A stretch of 32,085 nt of DNA from an archaeon (GCA_035289485.1 DATDXA010000022.1:1-32085); one strand, 5' to 3'; counted from the first letter of the stretch, positions 1,557 through 28,015 are shown. A program made the numbers and translations. Notes: generated by a model not told the origin, from the sequence alone.

Positions 1557-1619
1557 TCTTCAGAAAGTATAGGTAAGCCTCTTTTCGGTTGTAAGAAGCG
1601 TTGGCCTTTTCTTTTTCGT

Positions 1620-1656
1620 CAACGTTTTTCTTTTCGGCACGAAAAGAAAAAGGTTG
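1620..1656. repeat. Inverted repeat/hairpin in the uL3 leader
   Basis: Perfect 12-bp stem tttttcttttcg (1625-1636) / cgaaaagaaaaa (1640-1651), GCA loop, extended by caac/gttg after one mismatch. Confidence 0.75.
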
Positions 1657-1804
1657 GGTGTAAACTGTATTCATGGTAAATCTTCCATGGATATAAATGC
1701 ACAAAAATAGCTCATTTTGAGTTTTTTTGGCATTACAAGTACCTTCCGTGTGGTGAGCATGGCTTAGGGAAAGTACACTTTTTTAGGAATTGGAAGTTGA
1801 TTCA

Positions 1805-2818: not shown

Positions 2819-3666
2819 AAGCGCACATTGTTTCAATTGAAGGAAAAAAGCTCTCAGAGCTCGAACTTCCAAGGCAGTTCTCAGCAGATATAGATGAGGG
2901 GCTAATTAAGAGGGCTGTTCTTGCAATCCAGAGCGCGGGGGTTCAGCTAAAATACCCAACTCCGCTCGCGGGCAGAAACAACACGGCAATTTATGTCGGT
3001 TCAAGAGGCAAGCCAACGCAGTACAGAACGATTAATGTCGGGCACGCAAGAAAGCCGCGCATGAAAAACCGCAGGGGGCTTCTCTACGGGCGCGTTGCGG
3101 GAATTCCGGCAACAGTTGGGGGGCCAAAAGCGCACCCGCCAAAGCCAACCAAAGTTTGGGAAGAGAAAATCAACAAGAAGGAAAAGAGAAAGGCAACGGA
3201 TTCGGCAATCGCAGCAACCGGAAAAATGGAGCTTGTAAAGAGGAGAGGGCATATTTTCTCGGATAAAATTTCATTTCCAATTATTGTTGAATCAAAGCTT
3301 GAAGGCATGAGCAAAACTAAAAATGTCACAGAGGCATTTGAAGCAATGGGAATAATTTCTGATGTTGAAAAGGCAAAGAACAAGAGGCAGATTAGGGCAG
3401 GAAAAGGAAAGAAAAGGGGAAGAAAGCACAAGAGCAGAAAAAGCATACTCGTGGTTGCAAAAGATTCTGGAAAAATATTTCTCGCGGCGCGAAACATTGA
3501 GGGAGTTGACGTTGTGAGCGTGCGCGAGTTGAATGCGGATATGCTCGCTCCGGGAGCGCTTCCGGGAAGGCTTACAGTGTGGACTGAGGATGCGATTAAA
3601 GAACTTGGAGCGGAGAAAAAAGAAAAGCCGGTTGTGAAAGCGGCAGTGAAGGCAGAGGCAAAGTGA
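2815..3666 (+). CDS. rpl4: 50S ribosomal protein uL4
   Basis: GGPKAHPPK, EKINKKEKRKA, RAGKGKKRGR, LAPGALPGRLTVWTE. Confidence 0.98.
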   Translation: MKAHIVSIEGKKLSELELPRQFSADIDEGLIKRAVLAIQSAGVQLKYPTPLAGRNNTAIYVGSRGKPTQYRTINVGHARKPRMKNRRGLLYGRVAGIPATVGGPKAHPPKPTKVWEEKINKKEKRKATDSAIAATGKMELVKRRGHIFSDKISFPIIVESKLEGMSKTKNVTEAFEAMGIISDVEKAKNKRQIRAGKGKKRGRKHKSRKSILVVAKDSGKIFLAARNIEGVDVVSVRELNADMLAPGALPGRLTVWTEDAIKELGAEKKEKPVVKAAVKAEAK

Positions 3667-3679
3667 AGGATTTGATGTT

Positions 3680-3838
3680 ATGAAAATTGAAGCGCCAAAA
3701 AAGCCGAACAAGGAAGCGGCAAAGTGGGAAGAGCACATGAACAAAAAAACCCACACACAGGCCAAAGGCCCCGAAGCGGAAATAACGCACGCAAAAAAGA
3801 AGCAGAGCGTGGCGCCATCTAAAGGAAAAGTTGAAGTT
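3680..3838 (+). repeat. Direct repeat copy 1 (N-terminal module shared by uL23 and eL32)
   Basis: Aligns without gaps to 11261-11419; 45/53 aa identical. Confidence 0.95.
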
Positions 3839-4279
3839 GTTTCACATAAGGAAAAGGCAGTTGCAAAAGAGGTTGCGAAAGCTGCGCAGAAACATGATAT
3901 GAAAAAGGCTGCGCCGGTTGCAAAAAAGGAAGAGCACAAGCCAGTGAAGGCGGAAAAAGCAAAGAACGAGAAGAGCGGAGTTTCTGCGATTGCAAGAGAA
4001 GTTAGCGTTGAGGAAAAATTGGATGATTTGAATATTTTAAAGCACCCGCTTGTAACGGAAAAGGCAGTGAACATGATTGAGGACGAGAACAAGCTCACAT
4101 TTGTTGTTGACAAGAACGCTACCAAACCGACAATTAAGGGCGCGGTTGAATCGCTCTACAAGGTCCGTGTTAAGAAGGTTAGTATCCTCAACGACATGAA
4201 GGCAAGAAAGAGGGCAATAGTTACGCTCAATAAGGAATTCAAGGCAAGCGACATTGCAACCAAATTGGGAGTAATATAA
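3680..4279 (+). CDS. rpl23: 50S ribosomal protein uL23 with a ~115-aa N-terminal extension
   Basis: C-terminal ILKHPLVTEKAVNMIEDENKLTFVVD...ASDIATKLGVI is the uL23 core; lies between uL4 and uL2. Confidence 0.96.
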   Translation: MKIEAPKKPNKEAAKWEEHMNKKTHTQAKGPEAEITHAKKKQSVAPSKGKVEVVSHKEKAVAKEVAKAAQKHDMKKAAPVAKKEEHKPVKAEKAKNEKSGVSAIAREVSVEEKLDDLNILKHPLVTEKAVNMIEDENKLTFVVDKNATKPTIKGAVESLYKVRVKKVSILNDMKARKRAIVTLNKEFKASDIATKLGVI

Positions 4280-4292
4280 TTTAGGTGTGAAA

Positions 4293-5015
4293 ATGGGAAA
4301 ACGACTTAAAACCCAGCGAAGAGGTGCGGGCAGCCCAATATACACAGCAACGCTTAGGGCAAATGTTGAGGCAAAATACATCAACTACCCAAGCATCACA
4401 GACGGCACGATATTTGGCGAGATTGTGGATTTTATCCATGACGCAAGCAAGAGCGGAGTTGTTTCAAAAATAGTTTATGATAATGGAAAAGAAGAGTTCT
4501 CAATTGCAGCAGAAGGAACATTCGCAGGCCAGAGAATACAGCACGGAAAAGATGCGCCGCTTGAAATTGGAAATGTGAAAACACTCGGAAGCTGCATCGA
4601 AGGCTGCCCGATTTTTAATATAGAAAAGAACGCGGGAGATGGCGGAAGCCTTGTACGAAGCTCTGGAATGTACGCGCTTGTAATGTCAAAGGACAAAAAT
4701 TACGTTTATGTGAAAATGCCTTCAGGAAAAATCGTCGGGCTTGTGGCCGAATGCAGGGCAACAATAGGCTGCGTTGGCGGCGGCGGAAGAAAGGACAAGC
4801 CCTTTGTGAAAGCCGGCAAGAGATGGCATGCAATGAGAGCAAAGCACAAGAAGTACCCATACCCAAGGGCAGTTGCAATGAATGCACTTAACCACCCGTT
4901 CGGCGGAGCAAACCACCATCCGGGCAAATCAAAGTCCACTTCAAGGCACGCAGCTCCGGGAAGAAAGGTCGGAGACATTGCTTCAAGAAGGACAGGAAGA
5001 AGGAAGAAGAGCTAA
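4293..5015 (+). CDS. rpl2: 50S ribosomal protein uL2
   Basis: MGKRLKTQRRGAGSP, RAVAMNALNHPFGG, APGRKVGDIASRRTG; SD-like aggtg upstream. Confidence 0.98.
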   Translation: MGKRLKTQRRGAGSPIYTATLRANVEAKYINYPSITDGTIFGEIVDFIHDASKSGVVSKIVYDNGKEEFSIAAEGTFAGQRIQHGKDAPLEIGNVKTLGSCIEGCPIFNIEKNAGDGGSLVRSSGMYALVMSKDKNYVYVKMPSGKIVGLVAECRATIGCVGGGGRKDKPFVKAGKRWHAMRAKHKKYPYPRAVAMNALNHPFGGANHHPGKSKSTSRHAAPGRKVGDIASRRTGRRKKS

Positions 5016-5027
5016 ACAGGTGTAACT

Positions 5028-5438
5028 ATGGCAAAAAAAGACTTCACATTCAGGGGAAAACAAATCGAGGAGCTTGAGGCTGTCTCAATTGAGGAGTTCT
5101 CAAAGCTTTGCACATCAAGGCCGAGAAGGTCGATTAAAAGGCACAGTGTTGAGATGAAAAAACTCCTCGTGAACGTGAAGAAGGCGGCAGATGCCCTTAA
5201 GGCCGGAAAGTTTCCAAAGCCGGTTAGAACGCATAACAGGGACATGGTTGTTGTTCCGCAAATGCTCTCAGTTACAATGGCAGTGCACAACGGCAAGGAG
5301 TTTGTGAACGTTGAGATTAAGGAAAAGATGCTTGGGCATTTCCTGGGCGAATATGTGCTCACAAGAAAGAAGCTCACGCACGGAAAGGCGGGAATAGGAG
5401 CGACAAGAAGCTCTACTGCGATAACGGCAAGAGGATAA
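5028..5438 (+). CDS. rps19: 30S ribosomal protein uS19
   Basis: FTFRGK, VRTHNRDMVVVPQM, HNGKEF, MLGHFLGEY, GIGATRSS. Confidence 0.98.
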   Translation: MAKKDFTFRGKQIEELEAVSIEEFSKLCTSRPRRSIKRHSVEMKKLLVNVKKAADALKAGKFPKPVRTHNRDMVVVPQMLSVTMAVHNGKEFVNVEIKEKMLGHFLGEYVLTRKKLTHGKAGIGATRSSTAITARG

Positions 5439-5442
5439 AAAA

Positions 5443-5910
5443 ATGGTCAAGAAAAACTACCAGGTTGGCGCGGCTTCCGCAAAGATAGCGAAAGCCATGA
5501 TGACGAATAAGCCGGTTTCGCTAAAGTACAGCGTGGAAATTATTTCAAACATCAAAGGGCAGAGGGTTGAGAAGGCTCTTGCATGGCTTGGAAGGATTGC
5601 AAGCATGAAAGATTTCCTGCCGCTTAGAATGTACAACAAGAAAGTCGGGCACAGAAAAGGGGAGGCGCAGCACTTTAGCAAAAGCGGAAGATACCCGATA
5701 AGGTGCGTGAACGCATTCATAGAGCTTTTGAACACGGTGAAGGCAAACGCGGATTACAAGGGGCTTGATTCGGAGAACCTTCTGATAACGCACATGTTCG
5801 CTTCGCAGGGTTTTTCAAGAATGTCATACCAGTCGCAGGGAAGAATTTCGGGAAAAGCAAGAAAATCCAAGTCCACGCACATTGAAGTTATTGTAAGGGA
5901 GGCAAGGTAA
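5443..5910 (+). CDS. rpl22: 50S ribosomal protein uL22
   Basis: VSLKYSVEI, KKVGHRKG, GRYP, NADYKGLD, THIEVIV. Confidence 0.97.
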   Translation: MVKKNYQVGAASAKIAKAMMTNKPVSLKYSVEIISNIKGQRVEKALAWLGRIASMKDFLPLRMYNKKVGHRKGEAQHFSKSGRYPIRCVNAFIELLNTVKANADYKGLDSENLLITHMFASQGFSRMSYQSQGRISGKARKSKSTHIEVIVREAR

Positions 5911-6765
5911 ATGATTGAAAAATATTTTGTCAAGCAGAGCCTCAACAAGGTTGAACTTGATAATTATCTTGCAAAAGAACTGGACAAGGCGGGATTTACA
6001 AAATCCGAGATAGTAAAAACTCCGCTCGTTACAAGAATTGTTGTTAATGTCACAAGGCCCGGGCTTGCAATAGGAAAAAGCGGAACGAACATAGCAATGC
6101 TCACAGAAACAATCGGAAAGAGATTTGGAATTGATAACCCGCAGCTTGAGATTAAGGAAATTGAAAGGCCAGAACTTGATGCGCAGGCGGTTGCAAACAG
6201 GTTCAAGGCGGTAATTGAAAGGGGATTTTCTTGGAGAAGCGTCATTTTCAAAGGCCTCAATGACATACTGCGCGCGGGAGCGCAGGGTGCTGAAATAGTT
6301 GTGAGCGGAAAGCTTGCAGGAAAGGGCGGAAGAAAAAAGCAGGTAAGGGTAGGTTCAGGTTATATGAAAAAGGTTGGTGAACAGGCAAGGCTTGTTGATT
6401 ATGGGCAGGCAGCGGCGTACCCAAAAGTCGGAGCGATTGGAATCAAAGTGAAGATTGTAAAGCCGGACACAATATTCCCGGACAAGGAAAGGATACAGCC
6501 ATACATCAAGAAGAAGGAAGATGCGGCTGCGAAAGGAGTAGCTGCGCAGAAAGCAGAAGAAGCAAAAGCTGCGGCGCCTGAAGCTGAAAAGGCAGAAGAA
6601 GTGAAAGCCGAAGTTGCAAAAGATGAAGCTGCAAAGCCTGAGATAAAGAAAGAAACTCCTGCAGCAAAAAAAGAGCACAAGGCGGAGAAGAAAGAGCACG
6701 CTGAAAAGAAAGTTGATGTTGTGAAAGATGAGAAGACAGCGGCTAAAGTCGAGGAAGGAAAGTGA
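5911..6765 (+). CDS. rps3: 30S ribosomal protein uS3 with an A/E/K-rich C-terminal extension
   Basis: KH-domain RPGLAIGKSG, GAQGAEIVVSGKL, GAIGIKVKI. Confidence 0.97.
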   Translation: MIEKYFVKQSLNKVELDNYLAKELDKAGFTKSEIVKTPLVTRIVVNVTRPGLAIGKSGTNIAMLTETIGKRFGIDNPQLEIKEIERPELDAQAVANRFKAVIERGFSWRSVIFKGLNDILRAGAQGAEIVVSGKLAGKGGRKKQVRVGSGYMKKVGEQARLVDYGQAAAYPKVGAIGIKVKIVKPDTIFPDKERIQPYIKKKEDAAAKGVAAQKAEEAKAAAPEAEKAEEVKAEVAKDEAAKPEIKKETPAAKKEHKAEKKEHAEKKVDVVKDEKTAAKVEEGK

Positions 6766-6770
6766 AGATT

Positions 6771-6980
6771 ATGGGAAAGAAACTTGCAGCGTTGCGGGAC
6801 AATTCAACCGAGGAGCTTGAATCAAAGCTCCTTGATTTGAAAGGCGAACTCTCAAAGGAGAAGGCGCTTGTGGCATCCGGAACAAGAGCTGAGAAGCCTT
6901 CAAAAATCCGCAATGCGCGCAGGCAGATTGCAAGAATACTTACAATTATAGGGCAGAAAAAAAGAGGGGTGAAGAGCTAA
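6771..6980 (+). CDS. rpl29: 50S ribosomal protein uL29 (alternative GTG start at 6762)
   Basis: LRDNSTEELESKLLDLKGEL...KIRNARRQIARILTI; expected synteny. Confidence 0.95.
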   Translation: MGKKLAALRDNSTEELESKLLDLKGELSKEKALVASGTRAEKPSKIRNARRQIARILTIIGQKKRGVKS

Positions 6981-6982
6981 CA

Positions 6983-7285
6983 ATGGCAGAAATAGACAAA
7001 ATCACAGGCCTTCCAAAAGATCTTCTCGAATTCGGGGACATCACAAAGGAGTCGCAGAAAATCAAGGTGCGAACCCTTGCAAGAAGGTTTGGAAAAATTG
7101 TCACCATTGTAAGCGGCTTGGAGAACGAAGGAGAGGCAAAAAAACTTGAAAAGGAAATGAAGAGAAAACTTGCGTGCGGAGGGACCACAAAGGGCAAAGA
7201 AATTGTCCTGCAGGGAAAACATTCCGAGGCCGTGAAGGAAATTCTCAAGAAGAACGGATACAGGGAGGAATTGATTGATGCTTAA
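6983..7285 (+). CDS. sui1: Translation initiation factor aIF1/SUI1
   Basis: RRFGKIVTIVSG, KRKLACGGT, IVLQGKH; expected synteny. Confidence 0.95.
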   Translation: MAEIDKITGLPKDLLEFGDITKESQKIKVRTLARRFGKIVTIVSGLENEGEAKKLEKEMKRKLACGGTTKGKEIVLQGKHSEAVKEILKKNGYREELIDA

Positions 7286-7580
7286 ATCGGAAAAATACTG
7301 CATTACGCAAGCAAACATAATGGCGCATGAAATGATAGGCCTAAATGTTCGCGTTTTGCAAAGCACCGATAAGAGCAGAATGGGAGCTTCAGGAAAAGTT
7401 ATTGATGAGACAAAAAATGTTTTTGTGATTGAAAGCAATGGCGCTCAAATGATTTTGCCAAAAGCGGAATGCGGTTTTGAGTTTGATTTGAACGGGGAAA
7501 AAGTTATGGTTGATGGAAAAAAAATCGGTTACAGGCCTGAGCTTAGAATCAAGGCCCTTTGGAGGAATTTAAATGGCTGA
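7278..7580 (+). CDS. rnp1: Ribonuclease P protein component 1 (Rpp29/Pop4)
   Basis: HEMIGLNVRV, GKVIDETKN, RPELRIK; lies between SUI1 and uS17. Confidence 0.93.
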   Translation: MLKSEKYCITQANIMAHEMIGLNVRVLQSTDKSRMGASGKVIDETKNVFVIESNGAQMILPKAECGFEFDLNGEKVMVDGKKIGYRPELRIKALWRNLNG

Positions 7581-8064
7581 AAAAGTTCACAGCGATGAAG
7601 CTAAGGCAGTTCCATCGAGCCAGCAGGCGAAGATGGAACGCTCTCTCCCGACCGAAGGTGCCAAGCATGGCAAGAGCAGTTCGGGGGCTGAAAAAGTTCA
7701 CGGCAATGAAGCGCACGCAAAGGAAGCCCACAACAAAACGGCACATGGGAAGGAAACACCTGATGGAAAGGCAGTGGCAATGAAGCTTGTAACGCCCGAA
7801 GGATTTAGTGTCCGCGGCGCGGTACTTACAGGGCTTGTTGTGAGCGCAAAGGCGCCCAAAACCGTGACGGTTGAGAGAATAATCACAAAATACGTGCCAA
7901 AGTACGAGAGATACAAGAAAATAAAGTCAAGGGTAAAGGCGCACAACCCGGAGAGCCTAAACGCAAAGGAAGGCGACATGGTTCTTATTGGAGAGACAAG
8001 AAAACTTAGCAAGACAAAGAATTTTGTTGTAATGCAGATAATGAAAAGGGCTGGAAGCACATGA
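7573..8064 (+). CDS. rps17: 30S ribosomal protein uS17 with a ~70-aa N-terminal extension
   Basis: SVRGAVLTGLVVSAKAPKTVTV, YVPKYERY, AHNP, GETRKLSKTKNFVV. Confidence 0.96.
   Translation: MAEKVHSDEAKAVPSSQQAKMERSLPTEGAKHGKSSSGAEKVHGNEAHAKEAHNKTAHGKETPDGKAVAMKLVTPEGFSVRGAVLTGLVVSAKAPKTVTVERIITKYVPKYERYKKIKSRVKAHNPESLNAKEGDMVLIGETRKLSKTKNFVVMQIMKRAGST
7576..7712 (+). repeat. Pair of 26-nt direct repeats (AEKVHxxEA) in the uS17 extension
   Basis: gctgaaaaagttcacagcgatgaagc (7576-7601) vs gctgaaaaagttcacggcaatgaagc (7687-7712); 24/26 identical. Confidence 0.9.
7609..7639. repeat. Palindromic element, copy inside the uS17 coding sequence
   Basis: gttccatc-GA-gcc-agca-ggc-GAA-gatggaac; the same stem occurs at 27387-27420. 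Confidence 0.85.
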
Positions 8065-8459
8065 AGGGAATAAACGCGTCAATTTTGAGGGGCTTAACGC
8101 ATGGCACCATATGCGTCTGCGCAGACAACTCTGGCGCAAAAGAAGTGAAAATTATCACGGTTTACCGCTACAAGGGAAGGCGAAGGACAAACCCGAAGGG
8201 CGGAATTGCCGACATGGTAAATGTTGTTGTAAAGAAGGGAAAGCCGGAGATTAGAAAAAAAGTTGAGAAGGCGGTTGTAATCAGGGTACGCAAGGAATAC
8301 AAAAGGCCTGATGGGACGCGCATAAAGTTTGAGGACAACGCGGTTGTTTTGGTTGATGAAAAAGGGCTTCCGAAAGGCTCGGAAGTTAAGGGAGTAGTTG
8401 CAAAAGAAGTTGGCGAGAGATTTCCAAAAATAGCGGGAATCAGCGCCGGAGTTGTTTAG
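8061..8459 (+). CDS. rpl14: 50S ribosomal protein uL14
   Basis: CADNSGAKE, VVKKGKPEIRK, IKFEDNAVV. Confidence 0.98.
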   Translation: MKGINASILRGLTHGTICVCADNSGAKEVKIITVYRYKGRRRTNPKGGIADMVNVVVKKGKPEIRKKVEKAVVIRVRKEYKRPDGTRIKFEDNAVVLVDEKGLPKGSEVKGVVAKEVGERFPKIAGISAGVV

Positions 8460-8481
8460 AGGAAAAAAGGATTTGATGATT

Positions 8482-8883
8482 ATGGCAGAAAACACAATCG
8501 GGTCAATGGCAAGTTCGCAGCCAAAAAAGCAGAGGAAATGGTACTACACCAAGCCTTTGCACTCTTCATACAAGGAGTTCTCGGTGCACCTAAGTAAGGA
8601 GCTTCGCAAGGACCTTGGAAGAAGAAGCCTTGAAGTTCGCAAGGGCGACACTGTAAAGGTTCTAAGGGGCGGAGAGAAGGTGAACGGAAAGCAGGGAAAG
8701 GTTACTGGAATTACAAGGGCAAAGCGCATGGTTTTTGTTGACGGAGTTGTTAGAAAGAAAGTTGACGGAACAGAAAAACCAGTTCCACTAAGGCCTAGCA
8801 ATCTGCTCCTTGTTGCAATTGAGGATAAGGATGAGAGAAGGCTTTCAAAAAAAGGGAAGAAGGTGAAGCAAGATGGCAAATAG
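8482..8883 (+). CDS. rpl24: 50S ribosomal protein uL24 (start uncertain: 8476, 8482 or 8506)
   Basis: SSQPKKQRK, LSKELRK, KOW motif VRKGDTVKVLRG, PSNLL. Confidence 0.96.
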   Translation: MAENTIGSMASSQPKKQRKWYYTKPLHSSYKEFSVHLSKELRKDLGRRSLEVRKGDTVKVLRGGEKVNGKQGKVTGITRAKRMVFVDGVVRKKVDGTEKPVPLRPSNLLLVAIEDKDERRLSKKGKKVKQDGK

Positions 8884-9595
8884 GGGAGAGAGAAAGAGGC
8901 AAAAGAGCATAGCAGCGCCAAAGGTGCGCGGCTTTATGAGAAAAGTGGACACTTTCACGCCAAAGAGCAAGCCAGGACCGCACAACAAGGCAACATCAGT
9001 GCCGCTCTCGTTTGCGCTAAGGCAGGTTCTAAAGCTTACAAGCAACATGAAGGAGACAAAAAAGATTCTTTCAGCTGGAGATCTCAAAGTGAATGGAACA
9101 ATTAGAAAGAAGACGCATTTCCCTGTCGGAATATTTGACATTATCGAAATAGTTTCGGTCAAGAGAAAATTCAGGTTCCTTTTGGACACTAAAGGAAGGA
9201 TGATTGGAAAGGAAGTTGCGCACAAGGAAGGCAACTTTAAAGTTTCAAGAATTGTGGGCAAGAGAGTTGGAAAGGGCGGCAAGATGCTCGCAACCACAAA
9301 CGAAGGGTTCATCCTTGAAATCGGCAAGGAGAAAATAAATGTTGAGGATTCTGTGAAGATTTCAATTCCGGAAATGAAAGTTTTGGAAGTGTACCCAATG
9401 GACAAAGGGAGCACGGCATTCATTGTGGGCGGAACTCACACGGGAAAAACCGTAAGGCTCGAAGGGGTTCTTAGGGGCTCACTAAAGACGCACACGGTCG
9501 TTGAATTCGATGACAGCGGCAAGAAATACCAGACAGTTATTGACAATGTTTTCGTCGTCGGCAAATCAAAGCCGGAGATTGAGGCTCTGGCGTAA
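8873..9595 (+). CDS. rps4e: 30S ribosomal protein eS4
   Basis: KRQKSIAAP, PGPH, FPVGIFDII, GGTHTGK, NVFVVG. Confidence 0.96.
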   Translation: MANRGERKRQKSIAAPKVRGFMRKVDTFTPKSKPGPHNKATSVPLSFALRQVLKLTSNMKETKKILSAGDLKVNGTIRKKTHFPVGIFDIIEIVSVKRKFRFLLDTKGRMIGKEVAHKEGNFKVSRIVGKRVGKGGKMLATTNEGFILEIGKEKINVEDSVKISIPEMKVLEVYPMDKGSTAFIVGGTHTGKTVRLEGVLRGSLKTHTVVEFDDSGKKYQTVIDNVFVVGKSKPEIEALA

Positions 9596-9605
9596 GGTGA
9601 AGATT

Positions 9606-10121
9606 ATGGATTCGGAAAACGCAATGAAAAAAATCAGGATTGAGAAGGTCACAGTCAACATGGGAGTTGGCAAGACCGGAGACGAGCTTGATAAGGCCAT
9701 GGAGATTATGAGAAGAATTACCGGAGCAAAGCCTGTGGCAACCGAATGCAAGGTCAAAATCCCGACATGGGGAATAAGAGAGGGCCTTACAATCGGAACC
9801 AAGGTTACGCTCAGGGGCGAACTTGCGGATAAATTCCTGCGAGAAGCCCTGCTTGCAAAGGAAAACAAGATTGCAAAAAAGAGCTTTGATAAGTGCGGCA
9901 ATTTCGGATTTGGAATAAAGGAGTACATTGACATGCCAAAAGTAAAGTACGATCCAAAGCTTGGAATCCGCGGGCTTGATGTTTTGGTAACGCTTGAGCG
10001 GCCCGGATACAGGGTAAAGAAAAGGAAGCTTGCAAAGGGAAAGGTCAGCGGCTCACACATGATAAAGGCGGATGATGCGGTTAGTTTCATGAAAGAAAAG
10101 TTCGGGGTTGAAGTGGCATGA
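9606..10121 (+). CDS. rpl5: 50S ribosomal protein uL5
   Basis: IEKVTVNMGVG, WGIREG, KVTLRG, GNFGFGIKEYID, YDPKLGIRGLDV; SD aaggtga before ATG 9606. Confidence 0.98.
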   Translation: MDSENAMKKIRIEKVTVNMGVGKTGDELDKAMEIMRRITGAKPVATECKVKIPTWGIREGLTIGTKVTLRGELADKFLREALLAKENKIAKKSFDKCGNFGFGIKEYIDMPKVKYDPKLGIRGLDVLVTLERPGYRVKKRKLAKGKVSGSHMIKADDAVSFMKEKFGVEVA

Positions 10122-10276
10122 GTGAAAACAAGCCTCCAAGAAAAGACAAGCTAAGGCCGAGAATTTGCAAATGGTGCGGCACGCACAAGGGAGTAATGAG
10201 AAGGTTTGGGCTGAACATCTGCCGCAGATGCTTCAAGGACAATGCCCTCAAGATGGGATTTAGGAAGTTTGATTAG
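10118..10276 (+). CDS. rps14: 30S ribosomal protein uS14 (52 aa, below the ORF-track cutoff)
   Basis: Manual translation MSENKPPRKDKLRPRICKWCGTHKGVMRRFGLNICRRCFKDNALKMGFRKFD; CxxC...CRRCF zinc motif; between uL5 and uS8. Confidence 0.96.
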   Translation: MSENKPPRKDKLRPRICKWCGTHKGVMRRFGLNICRRCFKDNALKMGFRKFD

Positions 10277-10287
10277 GGGATGATGGG

Positions 10288-10680
10288 ATGAGCAGGACTG
10301 ACAGTATCGCGGATGCACTGACGCACCTAAAGAACAGCGAGAACGCCGCCAAAAGGGAATGTGTGGTAAGGCCGGCGTCCAAGCTGCTAAAGGAAATCTT
10401 TAGGATAATGCAGGCAAACGGGTACATTGGCTCCTTTGAACTTATAGATGATGGAAGGGAAGGAATGTTCAAGGTCCAGCTTGTTGGAAAGATTAACGAG
10501 GCGCGCGCGATAAAGCCTAGATATGCCGTTGGCAAAAACGAGTTTGAAAAATTCGAGAAGAAATATCTGCCGGCATACGATGTTGGAACCATAATAGTTT
10601 CAACGCCGCAGGGAGTGCTAACGCACGCGCAGGCAAAGGACAAGAATACAGGCGGAAGGCTGCTTGCATACATTTACTAA
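10288..10680 (+). CDS. rps8: 30S ribosomal protein uS8
   Basis: DSIADALTHLKN, GYIGSFELIDDGREG, IVSTPQGVLTH, GGRLLAYIY. Confidence 0.98.
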   Translation: MSRTDSIADALTHLKNSENAAKRECVVRPASKLLKEIFRIMQANGYIGSFELIDDGREGMFKVQLVGKINEARAIKPRYAVGKNEFEKFEKKYLPAYDVGTIIVSTPQGVLTHAQAKDKNTGGRLLAYIY

Positions 10681-10694
10681 AAAGGGTTGTTTTT

Positions 10695-11237
10695 ATGGAA
10701 GGAAAAATGGTTGAGACGGTGGAAATTCCCGCAGGAGTGCAAGCAGAGCTTGCAGGCAATGACGTCAAAGTCACAGCCTCGGGCAAGGCCAATTCAAGGC
10801 ATTTCAGGTCAACCGGGATTGCAATGAAAAAAGATGGCGAAAAAATAGAAATCTGGGCACTGAGCGAGAGAAGGAACGTTCTTGCAGAAGCAAAATCGGT
10901 TGCAACGCACATAAGGAACATGTTCTCTGGCCTTTCAAAGCCATACGAGTACAAGCTCGAAATCGTTTACAGCCATTTCCCAATGAACATTAAGGTAATG
11001 GATAAGGTCGTTGAGATTTACAACCTGGGCGGAGCAAAGCACCCAAGGAAAGCAAAAATAGTCGGAGATAGCAAGGTCACGGTGAAGGGAAAAGATATTT
11101 CTGTAACCGGCCAGAGCAAGGAAGCGGTTGGGCAAACTGCGGCCAACATGGAGCAGGCAACAAAAATCAAGGGCAAGGACATCAGGGTTTTTCAGGACGG
11201 AATTTACATCACGGCAAAGCCGCAAAGAGAGATGTAG
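10695..11237 (+). CDS. rpl6: 50S ribosomal protein uL6
   Basis: HIRNM, VYSHFPM, VGQTAANMEQAT, KDIRVFQDGIYI. Confidence 0.98.
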   Translation: MEGKMVETVEIPAGVQAELAGNDVKVTASGKANSRHFRSTGIAMKKDGEKIEIWALSERRNVLAEAKSVATHIRNMFSGLSKPYEYKLEIVYSHFPMNIKVMDKVVEIYNLGGAKHPRKAKIVGDSKVTVKGKDISVTGQSKEAVGQTAANMEQATKIKGKDIRVFQDGIYITAKPQREM

Positions 11238-11260
11238 TGTGAAATTTTGAAGGAATGCTT

Positions 11261-11419
11261 ATGAAAATCGAAACACCGAAAAAGCCGAACAAGGAAGCAG
11301 CAAAGTGGGAAGAGCACATGAACAAGAAAACCCACACAGCAGCCAAAGGCCCTGATGCGGAAATAATTCCTGCAAAGAAGAAGGAGAGCGTTGCTCCTGC
11401 AAAAGGGAATGTTGAAGTT
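11261..11419 (+). repeat. Direct repeat copy 2 (N-terminal module shared by uL23 and eL32)
   Basis: Aligns without gaps to 3680-3838. Confidence 0.95.
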
Positions 11420-12034
11420 ATGGCAAAAAAAGAAGCCCCGAAAGCGGAAGTCAAGCAGGCCGCTGCAACTGCAAAGCCGCAGGCACACACTGGGCAGGAC
11501 CACACGCATGCGGACGGGACTTATCACGCTCATGCACATGAGCAACCTGAAGTGAAGAAGGCTGCAGTTTCGGAAACAAAAGCGGCGGCAAAAGAAACAA
11601 AGCCGGCTGTGAAAAAGGAGAAGGTTCCGAAGAAATCAAGGAAGGTTATTCTCAAGAAAAGCAAGGACGCCTCAGAACTTGTTCTGAAGGTTCGCCTCAA
11701 GGCCGGAACCCCGACATTCAGGGGAAGGTTTGGCAAGAGAAATATCAGAAGAAAGAGCATTCCGAAGTGGAATGTGTGGAGAGTTCCAAGGGGAATTGAT
11801 GTCAAAAAATCCATGGCCGATGGTTACATGCCAAGGGTCGGATTTGCAACGCCAAGGGAAATTAGGCACGTGCACCCAAGCGGGTATAGGGAATCGAGCG
11901 TGAAAACCATGAACGAACTCCTTGCGGTTCCTAAGGGAAATGCAATCAGAATTGTCGCAGGGCTTGGAAGGAAGAAAAAAATCGGGATTGTTGACAAGGC
12001 AATTGAAATGGGAGTGAAGGTTCTCAACCCATAA
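11261..12034 (+). CDS. rpl32e: 50S ribosomal protein eL32 with a long N-terminal extension (alternative ATG at 11255)
   Basis: C-terminal PTFRGR, WRVPRGID, PRVGFATP, RHVHPSGY, GVKVLNP; lies between uL6 and eL19. Confidence 0.95.
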   Translation: MKIETPKKPNKEAAKWEEHMNKKTHTAAKGPDAEIIPAKKKESVAPAKGNVEVMAKKEAPKAEVKQAAATAKPQAHTGQDHTHADGTYHAHAHEQPEVKKAAVSETKAAAKETKPAVKKEKVPKKSRKVILKKSKDASELVLKVRLKAGTPTFRGRFGKRNIRRKSIPKWNVWRVPRGIDVKKSMADGYMPRVGFATPREIRHVHPSGYRESSVKTMNELLAVPKGNAIRIVAGLGRKKKIGIVDKAIEMGVKVLNP

Positions 12035-12060
12035 AGGGCTGTTCACGGAAGGTTACTGTT

Positions 12061-12501
12061 ATGAATGAAAGAAAAGCAAGGTTGGTTGCGGCAAGAATCC
12101 TGAAAGTTGGAGAGTCCAAGATTTGGATAAACCCAGAGCAGCTTGCGCGCGTTGGCGAGGCAATGACTAAGGAGGATTTGCGCGCGCTCATAAAGGAAGG
12201 GGTTGTGAAAAAGAGGCTTGACCATCTGCAGAGCCGCGGAAGGGCAAGAGTTCTGCTTGCAAAGAAAAAAAAAGGAAGAAAGAGGGGAAAGGGAAAGCGC
12301 ACAGGCACAAAGAAGGCAAGGAAGGGAGACAAGAAGATGTGGATGAAGAATGTGCGCGCGCAAAGAAGGGTTCTTGCTGAACTCAAAGAGTCCGGCGCCA
12401 AATTCAAGAAGACTCCGAGGGAAATTTATCTTATGATAAAGGGAAATTATTTCAGGGGAAAGAATTACCTCAAGCAAATGGTTGAGGAGGGTTCGAAATG
12501 A
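12061..12501 (+). CDS. rpl19e: 50S ribosomal protein eL19
   Basis: AARILKVGESKIWINP, SRGRAR, GKRTGTKKAR, WMKNVRAQRR, KGNYFR. Confidence 0.97.
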   Translation: MNERKARLVAARILKVGESKIWINPEQLARVGEAMTKEDLRALIKEGVVKKRLDHLQSRGRARVLLAKKKKGRKRGKGKRTGTKKARKGDKKMWMKNVRAQRRVLAELKESGAKFKKTPREIYLMIKGNYFRGKNYLKQMVEEGSK

Positions 12502-19824: not shown

Positions 19825-19908
19825 GCAGGGGTACCCAAGCGGTCAACGGGGCAGGACTTAAGATCCTGTGGCTGAGTGCCTTCGAGGGTTCGAATCCCTC
19901 CCCCTGCA
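19825..19908 (+). tRNA. tRNA-Leu (anticodon TAA), no intron, CCA not encoded
   Basis: Acceptor GCAGGGG/CCCCTGC plus discriminator A; anticodon arm CAGGA-CT-TAA-GA-TCCTG; long variable arm; T arm GAGGG-TTCGAAT-CCCTC. Confidence 0.97.
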
Positions 19909-27916: not shown

Positions 27917-28015
27917 ATGCCGACGATAATTGCTATGCCGAGTGCGAAGTCAGGCCTACCGAGCCCAAGCGAGGTAGTCCGCTCCCTCAGGGCGAGCAGG
28001 TCGGGGGTGCTGTGA
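27917..28015 (+). other. GC-rich palindromic spacer spanned by a 32-aa mini-ORF
   Basis: ctacc-GA-gc-ccaa-gc-GA-ggtag (27956-27977). ORF MPTIIAMPSAKSGLPSPSEVVRSLRASRSGVL* ends directly before the dut ATG. Confidence 0.55.

What the first reader, a model, noticed from the sequence alone, without database searches (positions are those of the whole stretch)
3680..11419. Two unrelated ribosomal proteins (uL23, eL32) carry the same 53-aa N-terminal module
Seen: 3680-3838 and 11261-11419 align without gaps, 45/53 aa identical, with an invariant 21-aa core PKKPNKEAAKWEEHMNKKTHT. I count 10 synonymous codon differences and 8 amino-acid changes, none in the core, which suggests protein-level selection rather than a recent copy or misassembly. 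Each module starts at its ATG after a gaagga and joins the canonical domain via an A/K/E-rich linker. It is not part of the uL23 or eL32 folds as I know them; uL23 is the exit-tunnel docking site. Inference: a portable interaction tag on the 50S surface (chaperone, partner or membrane binding, or ribosome tethering).
Basis: partly seen in the sequence, partly recalled or inferred. Interest (0 to 1): 0.82.

Follow-up and report, generated by a model that had tools for sequence, protein, structure and literature searches.

The report
Shared tail peptide on uL23, eL32
In one genus of tiny uncultured archaea, two unrelated large-subunit ribosomal proteins carry the same short peptide at the tip of long floppy N-terminal tails; the two copies are kept alike by repeated DNA copying between the genes, and what the peptide binds is unknown.

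Summary
Codons 1-53 of uL23 (3680-3838) and eL32 (11261-11419) share 45/53 residues, with 10 synonymous and 8 replacement codon differences; shuffled tails reach 19/53 at most. It is not a misassembly: independent contigs bridge both copies, and four other congeneric genomes carry the module on both genes.

New here: the module is confined to one genus. It sits on eL32 in 7 of 7 genomes and on uL23 in 5 of 7. A profile search of 1.84 billion proteins gave only 12 hits. Copies within a genome are closer to each other than to their orthologues, at synonymous sites too, so they are re-homogenised by gene conversion over the first 105-195 nt. The G000 pair has dN/dS 0.11.

The peptide is predicted as one amphipathic helix (W-x-x-H-[MIL]-x-K-K) plus an E-I-x-x-x-x-K-K patch, on a disordered Lys/Ala/Glu/His linker of about 65-95 residues.

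A tethered docking function is inferred, not shown. This scan has noted similar tail sharing on other DNA. Interest is moderate.

The parts
3665..3670 (+). GAAGGA, Shine-Dalgarno-like word 9 nt before the uL23 ATG; overlaps the uL4 stop codon
   Evidence: SD-like 5-mers precede 18 of 29 ATG starts in the window, against 0.20 of random positions.
3680..3838 (+). uL23 copy of the shared N-terminal module (codons 1-53)
   Evidence: 45/53 identical to the eL32 copy; alignment of 12 modules; invariant W16 H19 K22 K23 I35 K40.
3710..3754 (+). Predicted amphipathic helix of the uL23 module (residues 11-25; holds W16, H19, M20, K22, K23)
   Evidence: AlphaFold2 on alignment A1: only secondary-structure element is H11-25, block pLDDT 78.
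3776..3802 (+). Second conserved patch of the module (residues 33-41; E34 nearly invariant, I35 and K40 invariant, K41 nearly invariant)
3839..4030 (+). uL23 linker, 64 residues, Lys/Ala/Glu/Val-rich (15 K, 12 A, 9 E)
   Evidence: No alignable similarity to the eL32 linker beyond about codon 58.
4031..4279 (+). uL23 core domain and stop codon
   Evidence: Pfam PF00276, residues 118-179, 59.3 bits against cut-off 30.8. NCBIfam TIGR03636 uL23_arch, 96.7 bits against cut-off 94.95.
11249..11254 (+). GAAGGA, SD-like word 6 nt before the eL32 ATG
11261..11419 (+). eL32 copy of the shared module (codons 1-53). The ATG at 11261 (MKIE...) is the start conserved in relatives, not the ATG at 11255.
   Evidence: (the G005 frame has only the MKIE Met).
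11291..11335 (+). Predicted amphipathic helix of the eL32 module (residues 11-25)
   Evidence: AlphaFold2 of full-length eL32: H11-25, then no secondary structure until residue 128.
11420..11638 (+). eL32 linker, 73 residues, Ala/Lys/Glu-rich, predicted disordered
   Evidence: 17 A, 15 K, 7 E, 6 H. (blocks 31-110 have pLDDT 29-44). 0 invariant columns in the linker among 9 orthologues.
11486..11542 (+). His-rich tract inside the eL32 linker (HTGQDHTHADGTYHAHAHE)
   Evidence: Similar His-rich runs occur in eL32 linkers of genus members G002, G003, G004 and G005.
11639..12034 (+). eL32 core domain and stop codon
   Evidence: Pfam PF01655, residues 171-256, 65.5 bits against cut-off 25. Solved archaeal eL32 chains align from query residue about 131-141 onward.

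Best explanation
SHOWN. uL23 and eL32 of this small-genome archaeon each begin with the same peptide of about 45-53 residues. It is a translated, genus-restricted add-on. It is present on eL32 in all seven genomes of the genus and on uL23 in five.

The two copies lie 7.6-8.2 kb apart, in the same orientation, in the ribosomal-protein gene cluster. They evolve in concert: non-reciprocal DNA exchange (gene conversion) limited to the first 105-195 nt of the two genes repeatedly makes them alike. Between such events, replacements are removed by purifying selection.

PREDICTED. The peptide is a 15-residue amphipathic helix carrying the invariant W-x-x-H-[M/I/L]-x-K-K. It is followed by a Gly/Lys-rich spacer and a second patch, E-I-x-x-x-x-K-K. 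The peptide hangs on a disordered Lys/Ala/Glu(-His) linker of about 65-95 residues.

INFERRED. Each 50S subunit therefore displays two copies of one basic short linear motif on long flexible leashes. One is rooted at uL23 beside the tunnel exit and one at eL32. I think the motif most likely acts as a tethered docking peptide for a single common ligand, either a surface of the ribosome's own rRNA or a ribosome-associated protein. It would work by local-concentration capture, in the manner of the shared tail of the P-stalk proteins. Homogenisation of the two copies is tolerated or favoured because both must fit the same ligand.

The confidence of 0.55 is for the whole statement. Taken separately, I put the shown evolutionary part at about 0.85 and the inferred docking function at about 0.35.
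For: Real and translated:
- The frame is open in frame and the similarity starts at the ATG.
- An SD-like word precedes both ATGs.
- For the G000 pair, dN/dS is 0.11, with 14.5 synonymous against 9.5 replacement differences on 31.2 and 127.8 sites (binomial p=3.2e-5).
- A model in which one copy drifts neutrally (omega 0.5) gives P=0.009.
- Within the module, W16, H19, K22, K23, I35 and K40 are invariant in 12 of 12 modules. The eL32 linker has 0 invariant columns among 9 orthologues.

Restricted distribution:
- The own genome has 2 copies.
- The module is on eL32 in 7 of 7 and on uL23 in 5 of 7 genus genomes. It is on 0 of 14 uL23 and 0 of 15 eL32 of the other five genera of the family.
- A profile search of 1.84 billion proteins gave 12 hits at E<=1e-3, all N-terminal. 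Two have an L23 domain and four an L32e domain. Six are short fragments, three of which end in the first residues of the eL32 core.

Concerted evolution:
- Same-genome pairs have dS of 0.09, 0.44, 0.76, 0.81 and 1.02. Of 61 between-genome pairs, 38 are saturated and the rest range from 0.79 to 4.61.
- In the DNA tree the same-genome copies pair in 4 of 5 genomes (supports 100/99, 98/97, 89/93, 86/85). The AU test rejects a single uL23 clade (p=8.5e-52).
- Conversion tracts start 2-4 nt before the ATG in G000 and G002.

Structure:
- Helix 11-25 is the only predicted element, and residues 26-120 of eL32 are coil with pLDDT about 30.

Not an artefact:
- Independent contigs bridge both copies.

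Not an RNA element:
- RNAalifold finds 0 pairs over 12 sequences.

Analogy:
- aP0 and aP1 carry a common C-terminal factor-binding region behind a flexible hinge, giving seven sites per ribosome (PMC7768734, passages read).
Against: - No ligand was found and no binding test gave an answer.
- The module is confined to one genus. It is absent from uL23 in G003 and G006, so the uL23 copy is dispensable or was never gained there.
- Between species the module diverges fast (27-66% identity to G000's), as weakly constrained disordered regions do.
- dN/dS of the other same-genome pairs is 0.32-0.56. That is compatible with one relaxed copy that is merely overwritten from a selected eL32 copy.
- G004 and G005 same-genome dS (0.81, 1.02) overlaps the lowest between-genome values (0.79-0.87). 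There are only about 30 synonymous sites, so the estimates are noisy.
- Tails of ribosomal proteins in this family accept other material that need not be functional. A dispersed hairpin repeat lies in frame in uS17, and a dispersed short repeat lies in tails of genus g2.
- 23S rRNA of two genus members shows no genus-specific insertion or deletion, so there is no new rRNA docking element.
- I could not measure where the N-termini of uL23 and eL32 lie relative to each other on a 50S structure.
Confidence: 0.55

Rival explanations
1. Passenger copy on a generic tail. The motif has a role only on eL32, or none beyond that of a charged disordered tail that coats rRNA or keeps the protein soluble. 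The uL23 copy is a by-product of recombination between two compositionally similar Lys/Glu/Ala-rich 5' gene ends. It looks conserved mainly because it is repeatedly overwritten from eL32.
For: - All 21 uL23 and 22 eL32 of the family have Lys/Glu/Ala-rich N-terminal tails, with a median K+E+A share of 0.56-0.57. Substrates for ectopic recombination therefore pre-existed.
- eL32 carries the module in 7 of 7 genus genomes, and uL23 in only 5 of 7.
- In the module tree the eL32 copy has the shorter end branch in 4 of 5 genomes.
- dN/dS of four same-genome pairs is 0.32-0.56.
- Other tails in the family hold in-frame repeat insertions.
Against: - In G000 the pair's dN/dS of 0.11 is too low for one neutral copy (P=0.009).
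- The 21-residue core has 3 synonymous and 0 replacement differences.
- The uL23 copies alone keep K15 W16 E17 H19 M20 K22 K23 I35 K40 K41 in 5 of 5.
- Site patterns among G000, G002 and G005 are mosaic (TH or IP at residues 36-37, P or V at residue 9). This suggests exchange in both directions.
Confidence: 0.25
2. Cis-acting biogenesis tag. The N-terminal module acts while the proteins are being made, for example by co-translational capture by a common escort or as an in-cis solubility and assembly aid. This would resemble ubiquitin fused to eL40 and eS31 in eukaryotes. It plays no part in the mature ribosome.
For: - The module is the first part of both proteins to emerge from the ribosome.
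- It is the same N-terminal add-on on two unrelated ribosomal proteins, as with the ubiquitin fusions. eS31 is made as a ubiquitin fusion (PMC5027506; only the start of the abstract was seen, in the listing).
- eL32 is listed among early-assembling 60S proteins in yeast (PMC9932298, Table 2 passage).
Against: - No cleavage site or escort gene was identified.
- The module is a 15-residue helix, not a folded domain.
- The other genera of the family assemble the same two proteins without it.
Confidence: 0.1
3. Homotypic pairing. The helices of the two tails bind each other, forming a strap across one 50S or a link between ribosomes. Identity of the two copies is then itself the selected trait.
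For: Only indirect evidence: concerted evolution keeps the two helices alike, and the helix has a narrow A13/W16/M20 face.
Against: - The helix is short and highly charged.
- In G005 the two copies have diverged to 24 of 40 identical residues.
- G003 and G006 keep the eL32 copy with no partner on uL23.
Confidence: 0.05
4. RNA-level element. The shared 5' coding sequence is an mRNA signal, for example a binding site for an autoregulatory ribosomal protein, and not a peptide.
For: - The DNA similarity starts within 2-4 nt of the ATG.
- The 63-nt core has only 3 base differences.
Against: - RNAalifold predicts no consensus pair in 12 sequences.
- Differences are concentrated at synonymous sites.
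- Across the genus only the codons of W, H, KK, EI and K stay fixed.
Confidence: 0.03
5. Artefact. The repeat is an assembly chimera, or the extensions are not translated.
For: None found. No RNA or protein data exist for this organism in the tools used.
Against: - Contigs from 3-4 other runs bridge both junctions with 0 differences.
- Four further genomes of the genus carry the module on both genes.
- Selection is in frame.
Confidence: 0.02

Closest known systems
Archaeal/eukaryotic P-stalk: common C-terminal tail of uL10 (aP0/P0) and aP1/P1/P2
   Same: Different ribosomal proteins of one subunit end in the same short helix-forming peptide behind a flexible hinge. This gives several identical tethered binding sites per ribosome, which pool factors (PMC7768734, passages; PMC5887453, start of abstract).
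   Different: - The P-stalk tail is C-terminal; its acidic/hydrophobic character is recalled, not tested here. It is universal in archaea and eukaryotes, and its ligands (translational GTPases) are known.
- The module here is N-terminal and basic (12-13 K+R against 7-8 D+E) and confined to one genus. It sits on uL23 and eL32, and its ligand is unknown.
- This is an analogy of mechanism, not family membership.
Concerted evolution of prokaryotic paralogues by gene conversion (tufA/tufB, mtrA and others)
   Same: Copies within a genome are more alike than orthologues between genomes, recurrently and over long periods (PMC6053082, passages). The same pattern is seen here.
   Different: The known cases are whole-gene duplicates. 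Here only a 105-195-nt 5' segment is shared between two non-homologous essential genes. The passages I read in that paper list no prokaryotic ribosomal-protein gene; I did not read its Table 2 in full.
Ubiquitin fused N-terminally to eL40 and eS31 in eukaryotes
   Same: The same N-terminal module sits on two unrelated ribosomal proteins (PMC5027506, start of abstract, listing). The comparison was suggested by earlier scan note e1-4253512.
   Different: Ubiquitin is a folded, universal domain that is cleaved off (recalled). The module here is a short helix on a disordered leash with no evidence of cleavage.
Haloarchaeal eL32 with a long N-terminal addition
   Same: Solved Haloarcula-type eL32 chains are 240-241 residues long with the eL32 core at about 104-232. 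Another chain of 234 residues exists (9l94_Q). So an addition of about 100 residues in front of eL32 has precedent.
   Different: - The profile of the module finds no PDB chain at E<=10.
- The tail here is predicted to be disordered apart from one helix.
Other shared tails of ribosomal proteins noted by this scan (uL13/uS9, uL22/uS3, L29/S17, uS4/uL24)
   Same: Two ribosomal protein genes share a terminal tail segment that is re-homogenised by gene conversion, in small-genome archaea and CPR bacteria (AI notes e1-4253512, e1-1161252, e1-993468 and e1-1914697; not checked by me).
   Different: - A different protein pair, and the genes are 7.6 kb apart rather than adjacent.
- The segment is not low-complexity: it holds a defined W/H/KK helix motif with dN/dS 0.11.

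Membership tests
uL23 (Ribosomal_L23, PF00276; NCBIfam uL23_arch TIGR03636) | Match to the family profile above its curated cut-off | tested here: met
   PF00276: 59.3 bits against 30.8, residues 118-179. TIGR03636: 96.7 bits against 94.95, residues 123-199.
eL32 (Ribosomal_L32e, PF01655) | Match to the family profile above its curated cut-off | tested here: met
   PF01655: 65.5 bits against 25, residues 171-256. Solved archaeal eL32 chains match at E down to 7.9e-17. NCBIfam NF006332 scores 76, below its cut-off of 120.
Concerted evolution by gene conversion | Paralogous segments within a genome are closer than orthologous segments between genomes, at synonymous sites too | tested here: met
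   Same-genome dS is 0.09-1.02. Three of the five same-genome pairs lie below every one of the 61 between-genome pairs, 38 of which are saturated. In the tree, same-genome copies pair in 4 of 5 genomes, and the AU test gives p=8.5e-52 against a uL23 clade. I named that group after seeing the identities.
Concerted evolution by gene conversion | A delimited tract with unrelated flanks | tested here: met
   blastn tracts of 106-194 nt start at the ATG or 2-4 nt before it in G000, G002 and G005, and at +8 and +31 nt in G001 and G004. Upstream and downstream sequence does not align.
P-stalk-type shared factor-binding tail | The same terminal peptide on two or more different ribosomal proteins, behind a flexible hinge | tested here: met
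   same peptide; a single helix, and a linker with pLDDT about 30. The flexibility is a prediction only.
P-stalk-type shared factor-binding tail | Homology to the aP1/P0 C-terminal region; C-terminal position | tested here: not met
   The module is N-terminal. The profile of the module finds no PDB chain at E<=10, although aP1 complexes are in the PDB (PMC4267659, start of abstract, listing). No Pfam or NCBIfam family matches the module.
P-stalk-type shared factor-binding tail | Binds translation factors or another defined ligand | not testable with these tools
   No ligand is known. The one complex-prediction job gave no answer (see Tried and rejected).
Dispersed in-frame repeat insertions in ribosomal-protein tails (as in uS17 of this window and in genus g2) | Many copies per genome, also outside genes; hairpin-forming | tested here: not met
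   The module has only 2 copies per genome and no predicted RNA structure. By contrast, the uS17 element has at least 3 further copies and folds with z=-2.95.
Haloarchaeal-type eL32 N-terminal domain | Sequence similarity of the N-terminal addition | tested here: not met
   phmmer alignments to the 240-241-residue chains cover only query residues 129-257. The module profile has 0 PDB hits.

The most novel reading that the evidence does not exclude
The two tails form a second, P-stalk-like capture system on the solvent side of the 50S subunit. Two identical leashed peptides, one rooted at the tunnel-exit protein uL23, would pool a factor that acts on nascent chains or on the ribosome itself. 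Candidates are SRP, the SecYEG translocon, a chaperone or a hibernation factor. The system would have been invented within a single genus of genome-reduced archaea and kept uniform by gene conversion because both peptides must fit one ligand.
Probability: 0.15. Interest if true: 0.8.

Novelty: new variant of a known kind. Interest (0 to 1): 0.5.

Why it matters
This is a clean natural example of how ribosomal proteins gain new parts. A short motif arises in a disordered tail and is copied to a second, unrelated essential gene. It is then held in step by segmental gene conversion while selection acts on the peptide.

If the motif is a docking peptide, it would show that multivalent leashed-peptide recruitment, known from the P-stalk, can arise anew elsewhere on the ribosome. 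It would also give a handle for finding ribosome partners in uncultured DPANN-type archaea.

If it is only a passenger, it still documents, together with the in-frame repeat insertions nearby, that ribosomal-protein tails in these lineages change rapidly.

My five literature searches found no description of a module shared by uL23 and eL32, or of segmental conversion between non-homologous ribosomal-protein genes. These searches cover open-access papers and preprints only.

Tried and rejected
- Complex prediction of the uL23 module with the eL32 module: no answer (score 0.00, mark 0.32). This is not evidence either way.
- RNA runs: no RNA holder is listed for window 3000-12500, so expression could not be examined.
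- rRNA docking site:
  - No 23S rRNA is in the own assembly, and no 16S 3' end was found by a motif.
  - 23S was found in 8 of 23 family genomes. Seven are full-length, at 2977-2995 nt.
  - An alignment of 2 genus members against 5 others shows no genus-specific indel column and 16 genus-specific substitutions, 13 of them before column 1302. With so few sequences I draw nothing from the substitutions.
- Known-family searches of the module found nothing:
  - Pfam (E<=0.01, full proteins).
  - NCBIfam (E<=1).
  - PDB profile (E<=10).
  - ESM Atlas by features gave no usable hit, and its structure rows all have TM<=0.52 on a single helix, which is meaningless.
- Weak module hits outside the genus (E 0.02-0.2) lie in frames of 93-167 aa encoding a small Cys-rich protein. 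It looks like an eL42-type ribosomal protein (label recalled, not tested). I treat these as chance similarity.
- A specific uL23-eL32 coupling across the family was considered, because G012 uL23 and G020 eL32 tails share a peptide (52.4 bits against a shuffle maximum of 45.8). I rejected it as evidence because the underlying DNA word is dispersed in those genomes.
- A membrane-anchor reading was rejected because the helix has one Trp and one Met among charged residues. This is by inspection only.
- The position of the eL32 and uL23 N-termini on the 50S was sought in three papers and not found. No coordinates were available to measure it.
- The taxon could not be named from record titles, which read 'uncultured archaeon'.

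Full report
OBSERVATION

The window holds the archaeal ribosomal-protein cluster, running from uL4, uL23 and uL2 through uL6, eL32 and eL19 to SecY. The uL23 ORF is 3680-4279 and the eL32 ORF is 11261-12034.

- The first 53 codons of the two ORFs align without gaps. They share 45/53 identical residues, with 35 identical codons, 10 synonymous and 8 replacement codon differences, and 135/159 identical bases. A 21-residue stretch is fully identical.
- Upstream blocks are only 4-5 of 15 bases identical, and similarity fades after about codon 55.
- Shuffling the eL32 tail 200 times gives at most 19 of 53 identities.
- Pfam and NCBIfam place the uL23 and eL32 domains at residues 118-199 and 142-257. 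Solved eL32 chains align only from residue about 130 onward. The module therefore lies outside both folds.
- The linkers are Lys/Ala/Glu-rich, and the eL32 linker holds a His-rich run at 11486-11542.
- Both ATGs are preceded by GAAGGA. SD-like words precede 18 of 29 ATG starts in the window, against 0.20 of random positions (I picked the word set after inspection).

NOT AN ARTEFACT

- The genome is 1.16 Mb in 64 contigs and 90% complete. It holds only these two copies.
- Five DNA runs from four studies (groundwater and soil metagenomes) hold at least 87% of the sampled words of window 3000-12500.
- I laid four of those runs.
  - Listed contigs bridge the uL4-module-linker junctions of uL23 in X2, X3 and X4.
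  - They bridge the eL32 module in X2, X3, X4 and X5.
  - The listed contigs that span the modules show 0 differences.
  - No joint links the two copies.
  - The single joint reported (3515 to 7395, 20 letters on the shorter side, one contig in X3) lies elsewhere.
- X2 may be the source sample. Seventy further pieces were not shown.

DISTRIBUTION

- A six-frame search with the module in 41 genomes found it in all 6 congeneric genomes plus G000. The other matches (E 0.02-0.2) lie in a small Cys-rich protein, and I treat them as chance.
- I extracted the uL23 frames (21 genomes) and eL32 frames (22 genomes) of the family.
  - Every one has a Lys/Glu/Ala-rich N-terminal tail.
  - The module is on eL32 in 7 of 7 genus genomes.
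  - It is on uL23 in 5 of 7, and is missing in G003 and G006.
  - It is on none of the 14 uL23 or 15 eL32 of the other five genera.
- On a tree of the two core domains the genus is one group (support 94/90). G003 and G006 pair (80/81). The genus root is unresolved, so gain after their split and loss in their ancestor cannot be told apart.
- A profile of 12 modules (A1) was searched against 1.84 billion representative proteins. It found 12 proteins at E<=1e-3, always at the N-terminus.
  - Two carry the L23 domain and four the L32e domain.
  - Six are 86-149-residue pieces without a Pfam domain.
  - Three of those six end in the first residues of the eL32 core. The other three are unclear and may be frameshifted or cut.
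- No other kind of protein carries the module.

CONCERTED EVOLUTION

Within each genome the two copies share lineage-specific residues that their orthologues lack.

- Nei-Gojobori estimates over 44 module columns give same-genome dS values of 0.09 (G002), 0.44 (G001), 0.76 (G000), 0.81 (G004) and 1.02 (G005).
- Of 61 between-genome pairs, 38 are saturated and the rest range from 0.79 to 4.61. Three of the five same-genome pairs therefore lie below every between-genome pair. The other two overlap its low end. With only about 30 synonymous sites the estimates are noisy.
- On a DNA tree of the 12 modules, same-genome copies pair in G002 (100/99), G004 (98/97), G000 (89/93) and G001 (86/85). They do not pair in G005.
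- Holding the five uL23 copies together costs 123.6 log-likelihood units (AU p=8.5e-52). I named that group after seeing the identities.
- blastn tracts are 176 nt at 83% (G000), 106 nt at 88% (G001), 194 nt at 68% (G004) and 127 nt at 71% (G005). In G002 the tract is 144 nt at 95.8%, followed by 65 nt at 78% beyond a 63-nt insert in eL32.
- The tracts start at the ATG or within 2-4 nt before it in G000, G002 and G005. In G001 and G004 they start 8 and 31 nt into the uL23 gene.
- Selection on the peptide alone cannot make synonymous sites alike, so DNA is being copied between the two gene starts.
- The genes lie 7.6-8.2 kb apart in the same orientation where both are on one contig. I infer that crossing-over between such direct repeats would delete essential genes, so only conversion products survive.
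- Mosaic site patterns suggest partial tracts and exchange in both directions. Residues 36-37 are TH in G000 uL23 and in both G002 copies, but IP in G000 eL32 and in both G005 copies. Residue 9 is P or V in a different grouping. This is an inference.
- One metagenomic uL23 (P0001) carries both the module and a His-rich run in its linker. This may reflect a longer tract.

SELECTION

- For the G000 pair there are 14.5 synonymous and 9.5 replacement differences on 31.2 and 127.8 sites. That gives dS 0.73, dN 0.078 and a ratio of 0.11, with p=3.2e-5 for an excess of synonymous change.
- If one copy were drifting neutrally (omega 0.5), 10 or fewer replacements out of 24 would have P=0.009.
- The other same-genome pairs give ratios of 0.32-0.56. 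These do not exclude one relaxed copy.
- Across all 12 modules W16, H19, K22, K23, I35 and K40 are invariant, and M1, E34 and K41 nearly so.
- Among 9 eL32 orthologues the linker has no invariant column.

STRUCTURE

- AlphaFold2 predicts one helix at residues 11-25 and nothing else in the module (mean pLDDT 66).
- In full-length eL32 the same helix is followed by about 95 residues without secondary structure, at pLDDT about 30. The shallow alignment left the core only partly confident.
- The module is basic, with 12-13 K+R against 7-8 D+E.
- RNAalifold finds no conserved RNA structure in the 12 coding sequences.

WHAT IT MOST LIKELY IS

Shown: a genus-specific, translated and selected peptide motif sits at the free end of long tails of uL23 and eL32, and segmental gene conversion keeps the two copies alike.

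Inferred: it is a tethered short linear motif that docks on one common ligand. [quoted passage not shown]

It is not a member of that family. It is N-terminal and basic, and it matches no solved chain. uL23 lies at the tunnel exit (PMC9932298, passage). I could not establish where the eL32 N-terminus lies relative to it.

A new rRNA expansion as the docking site is not supported. 23S rRNAs of G003 and G004 are 2986-2990 nt long, like those of five relatives, and have no genus-specific indel.

CONTEXT THAT TEMPERS THE CLAIM

Tails of ribosomal proteins in this family take up other sequence.

- The uS17 tail of this window holds, in frame, an 80-nt hairpin-forming dispersed repeat. It is flanked by a duplication of the gene's first codons.
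- In genus g2 a short dispersed word encodes a peptide shared by uL23 and eL32 tails.
- His-rich runs sit in uL23 in some genomes and in eL32 in others.
- This scan has noted shared, gene-converted tails on other ribosomal-protein pairs in other genomes (AI notes, unchecked by me).
- The present case differs in having a defined non-repetitive motif, only two copies per genome, and measurable purifying selection.

LITERATURE

Five full-text searches found no description of this module or of segmental conversion between non-homologous ribosomal-protein genes. Concerted evolution of whole paralogues in prokaryotes is known (PMC6053082, passages). I read no supplements.

VERDICT

The feature is real and undescribed as far as I could search, but taxonomically narrow and of unknown function. 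It is a new variant of known kinds: lineage-specific ribosomal-protein extensions, concerted evolution, and shared leashed tails. Interest 0.5.

Noticed in passing
window 7573-7720 (uS17 gene, 7573-8064): The N-terminal extension of uS17 contains, in frame, a dispersed repeat of about 80 nt (7607-7687). Partial copies lie on contigs C3, C50 and C4 of the same genome (85-96% identity over 45-82 nt). The repeat is flanked by a direct duplication of the gene's first codons: the 15-nt word recurs at 7576 and 7687, giving AEKVHSDEA and AEKVHGNEA. The insert folds into two hairpins (-38.7 kcal/mol, z=-2.95). It looks like a small mobile hairpin element inserted with a target duplication and now translated.
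   Followed up: partly
window 1604-1658 (intergenic) and 27947-28006: A repeat of about 55 nt at 1604-1658 has at least 13 further copies on 10 contigs of the genome (85-92% identity). The segment 27947-28006 matches C3:26536-26595 at 93%.
   Followed up: no
window 11486-11542; loci: His-rich runs (HxHxH type) occur in the eL32 linker of most genus members (8-16 His in G000, G002, G003, G004, G005). In other genera they sit in uL23 (G008 14 His, G013 9 His) or in eL32 (G016 7 His). The metagenomic uL23 P0001 also has one. This suggests metal binding, but only a non-significant HypB-prefix hint was found (E 0.66).
   Followed up: partly
L033 (G012 uL23), L054 (G020 eL32), L055 (G007 eL32): In genus g2 the tails of uL23 and eL32 share a peptide around TKGSPAE (52.4 bits, above the maximum of 45.8 in 30 shuffles). 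The DNA word behind it recurs 5-7 times in G012 and G007, including three sites on the G007 contig that holds eL32, and it adjoins a small hairpin. It is probably another dispersed in-frame insert.
   Followed up: partly
window 6480-6765 (uS3 C-terminus) and 3610-3666 (uL4 C-terminus): uS3 ends in an Ala/Lys/Glu-rich tail of about 95 residues, and uL4 ends in a short Lys/Ala/Glu tail. Low-complexity charged tails are therefore common among ribosomal proteins of this genome.
   Followed up: no
alignment of 23S rRNA from L073-L079: Of 16 substitutions specific to the two genus members with a 23S gene, 13 lie before alignment column 1302. There are too few sequences to interpret this.
   Followed up: no
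window 19825-19908: A tRNA gene spans 84 nt against a 71-position model, so it may have a long variable arm or an intron.
   Followed up: no
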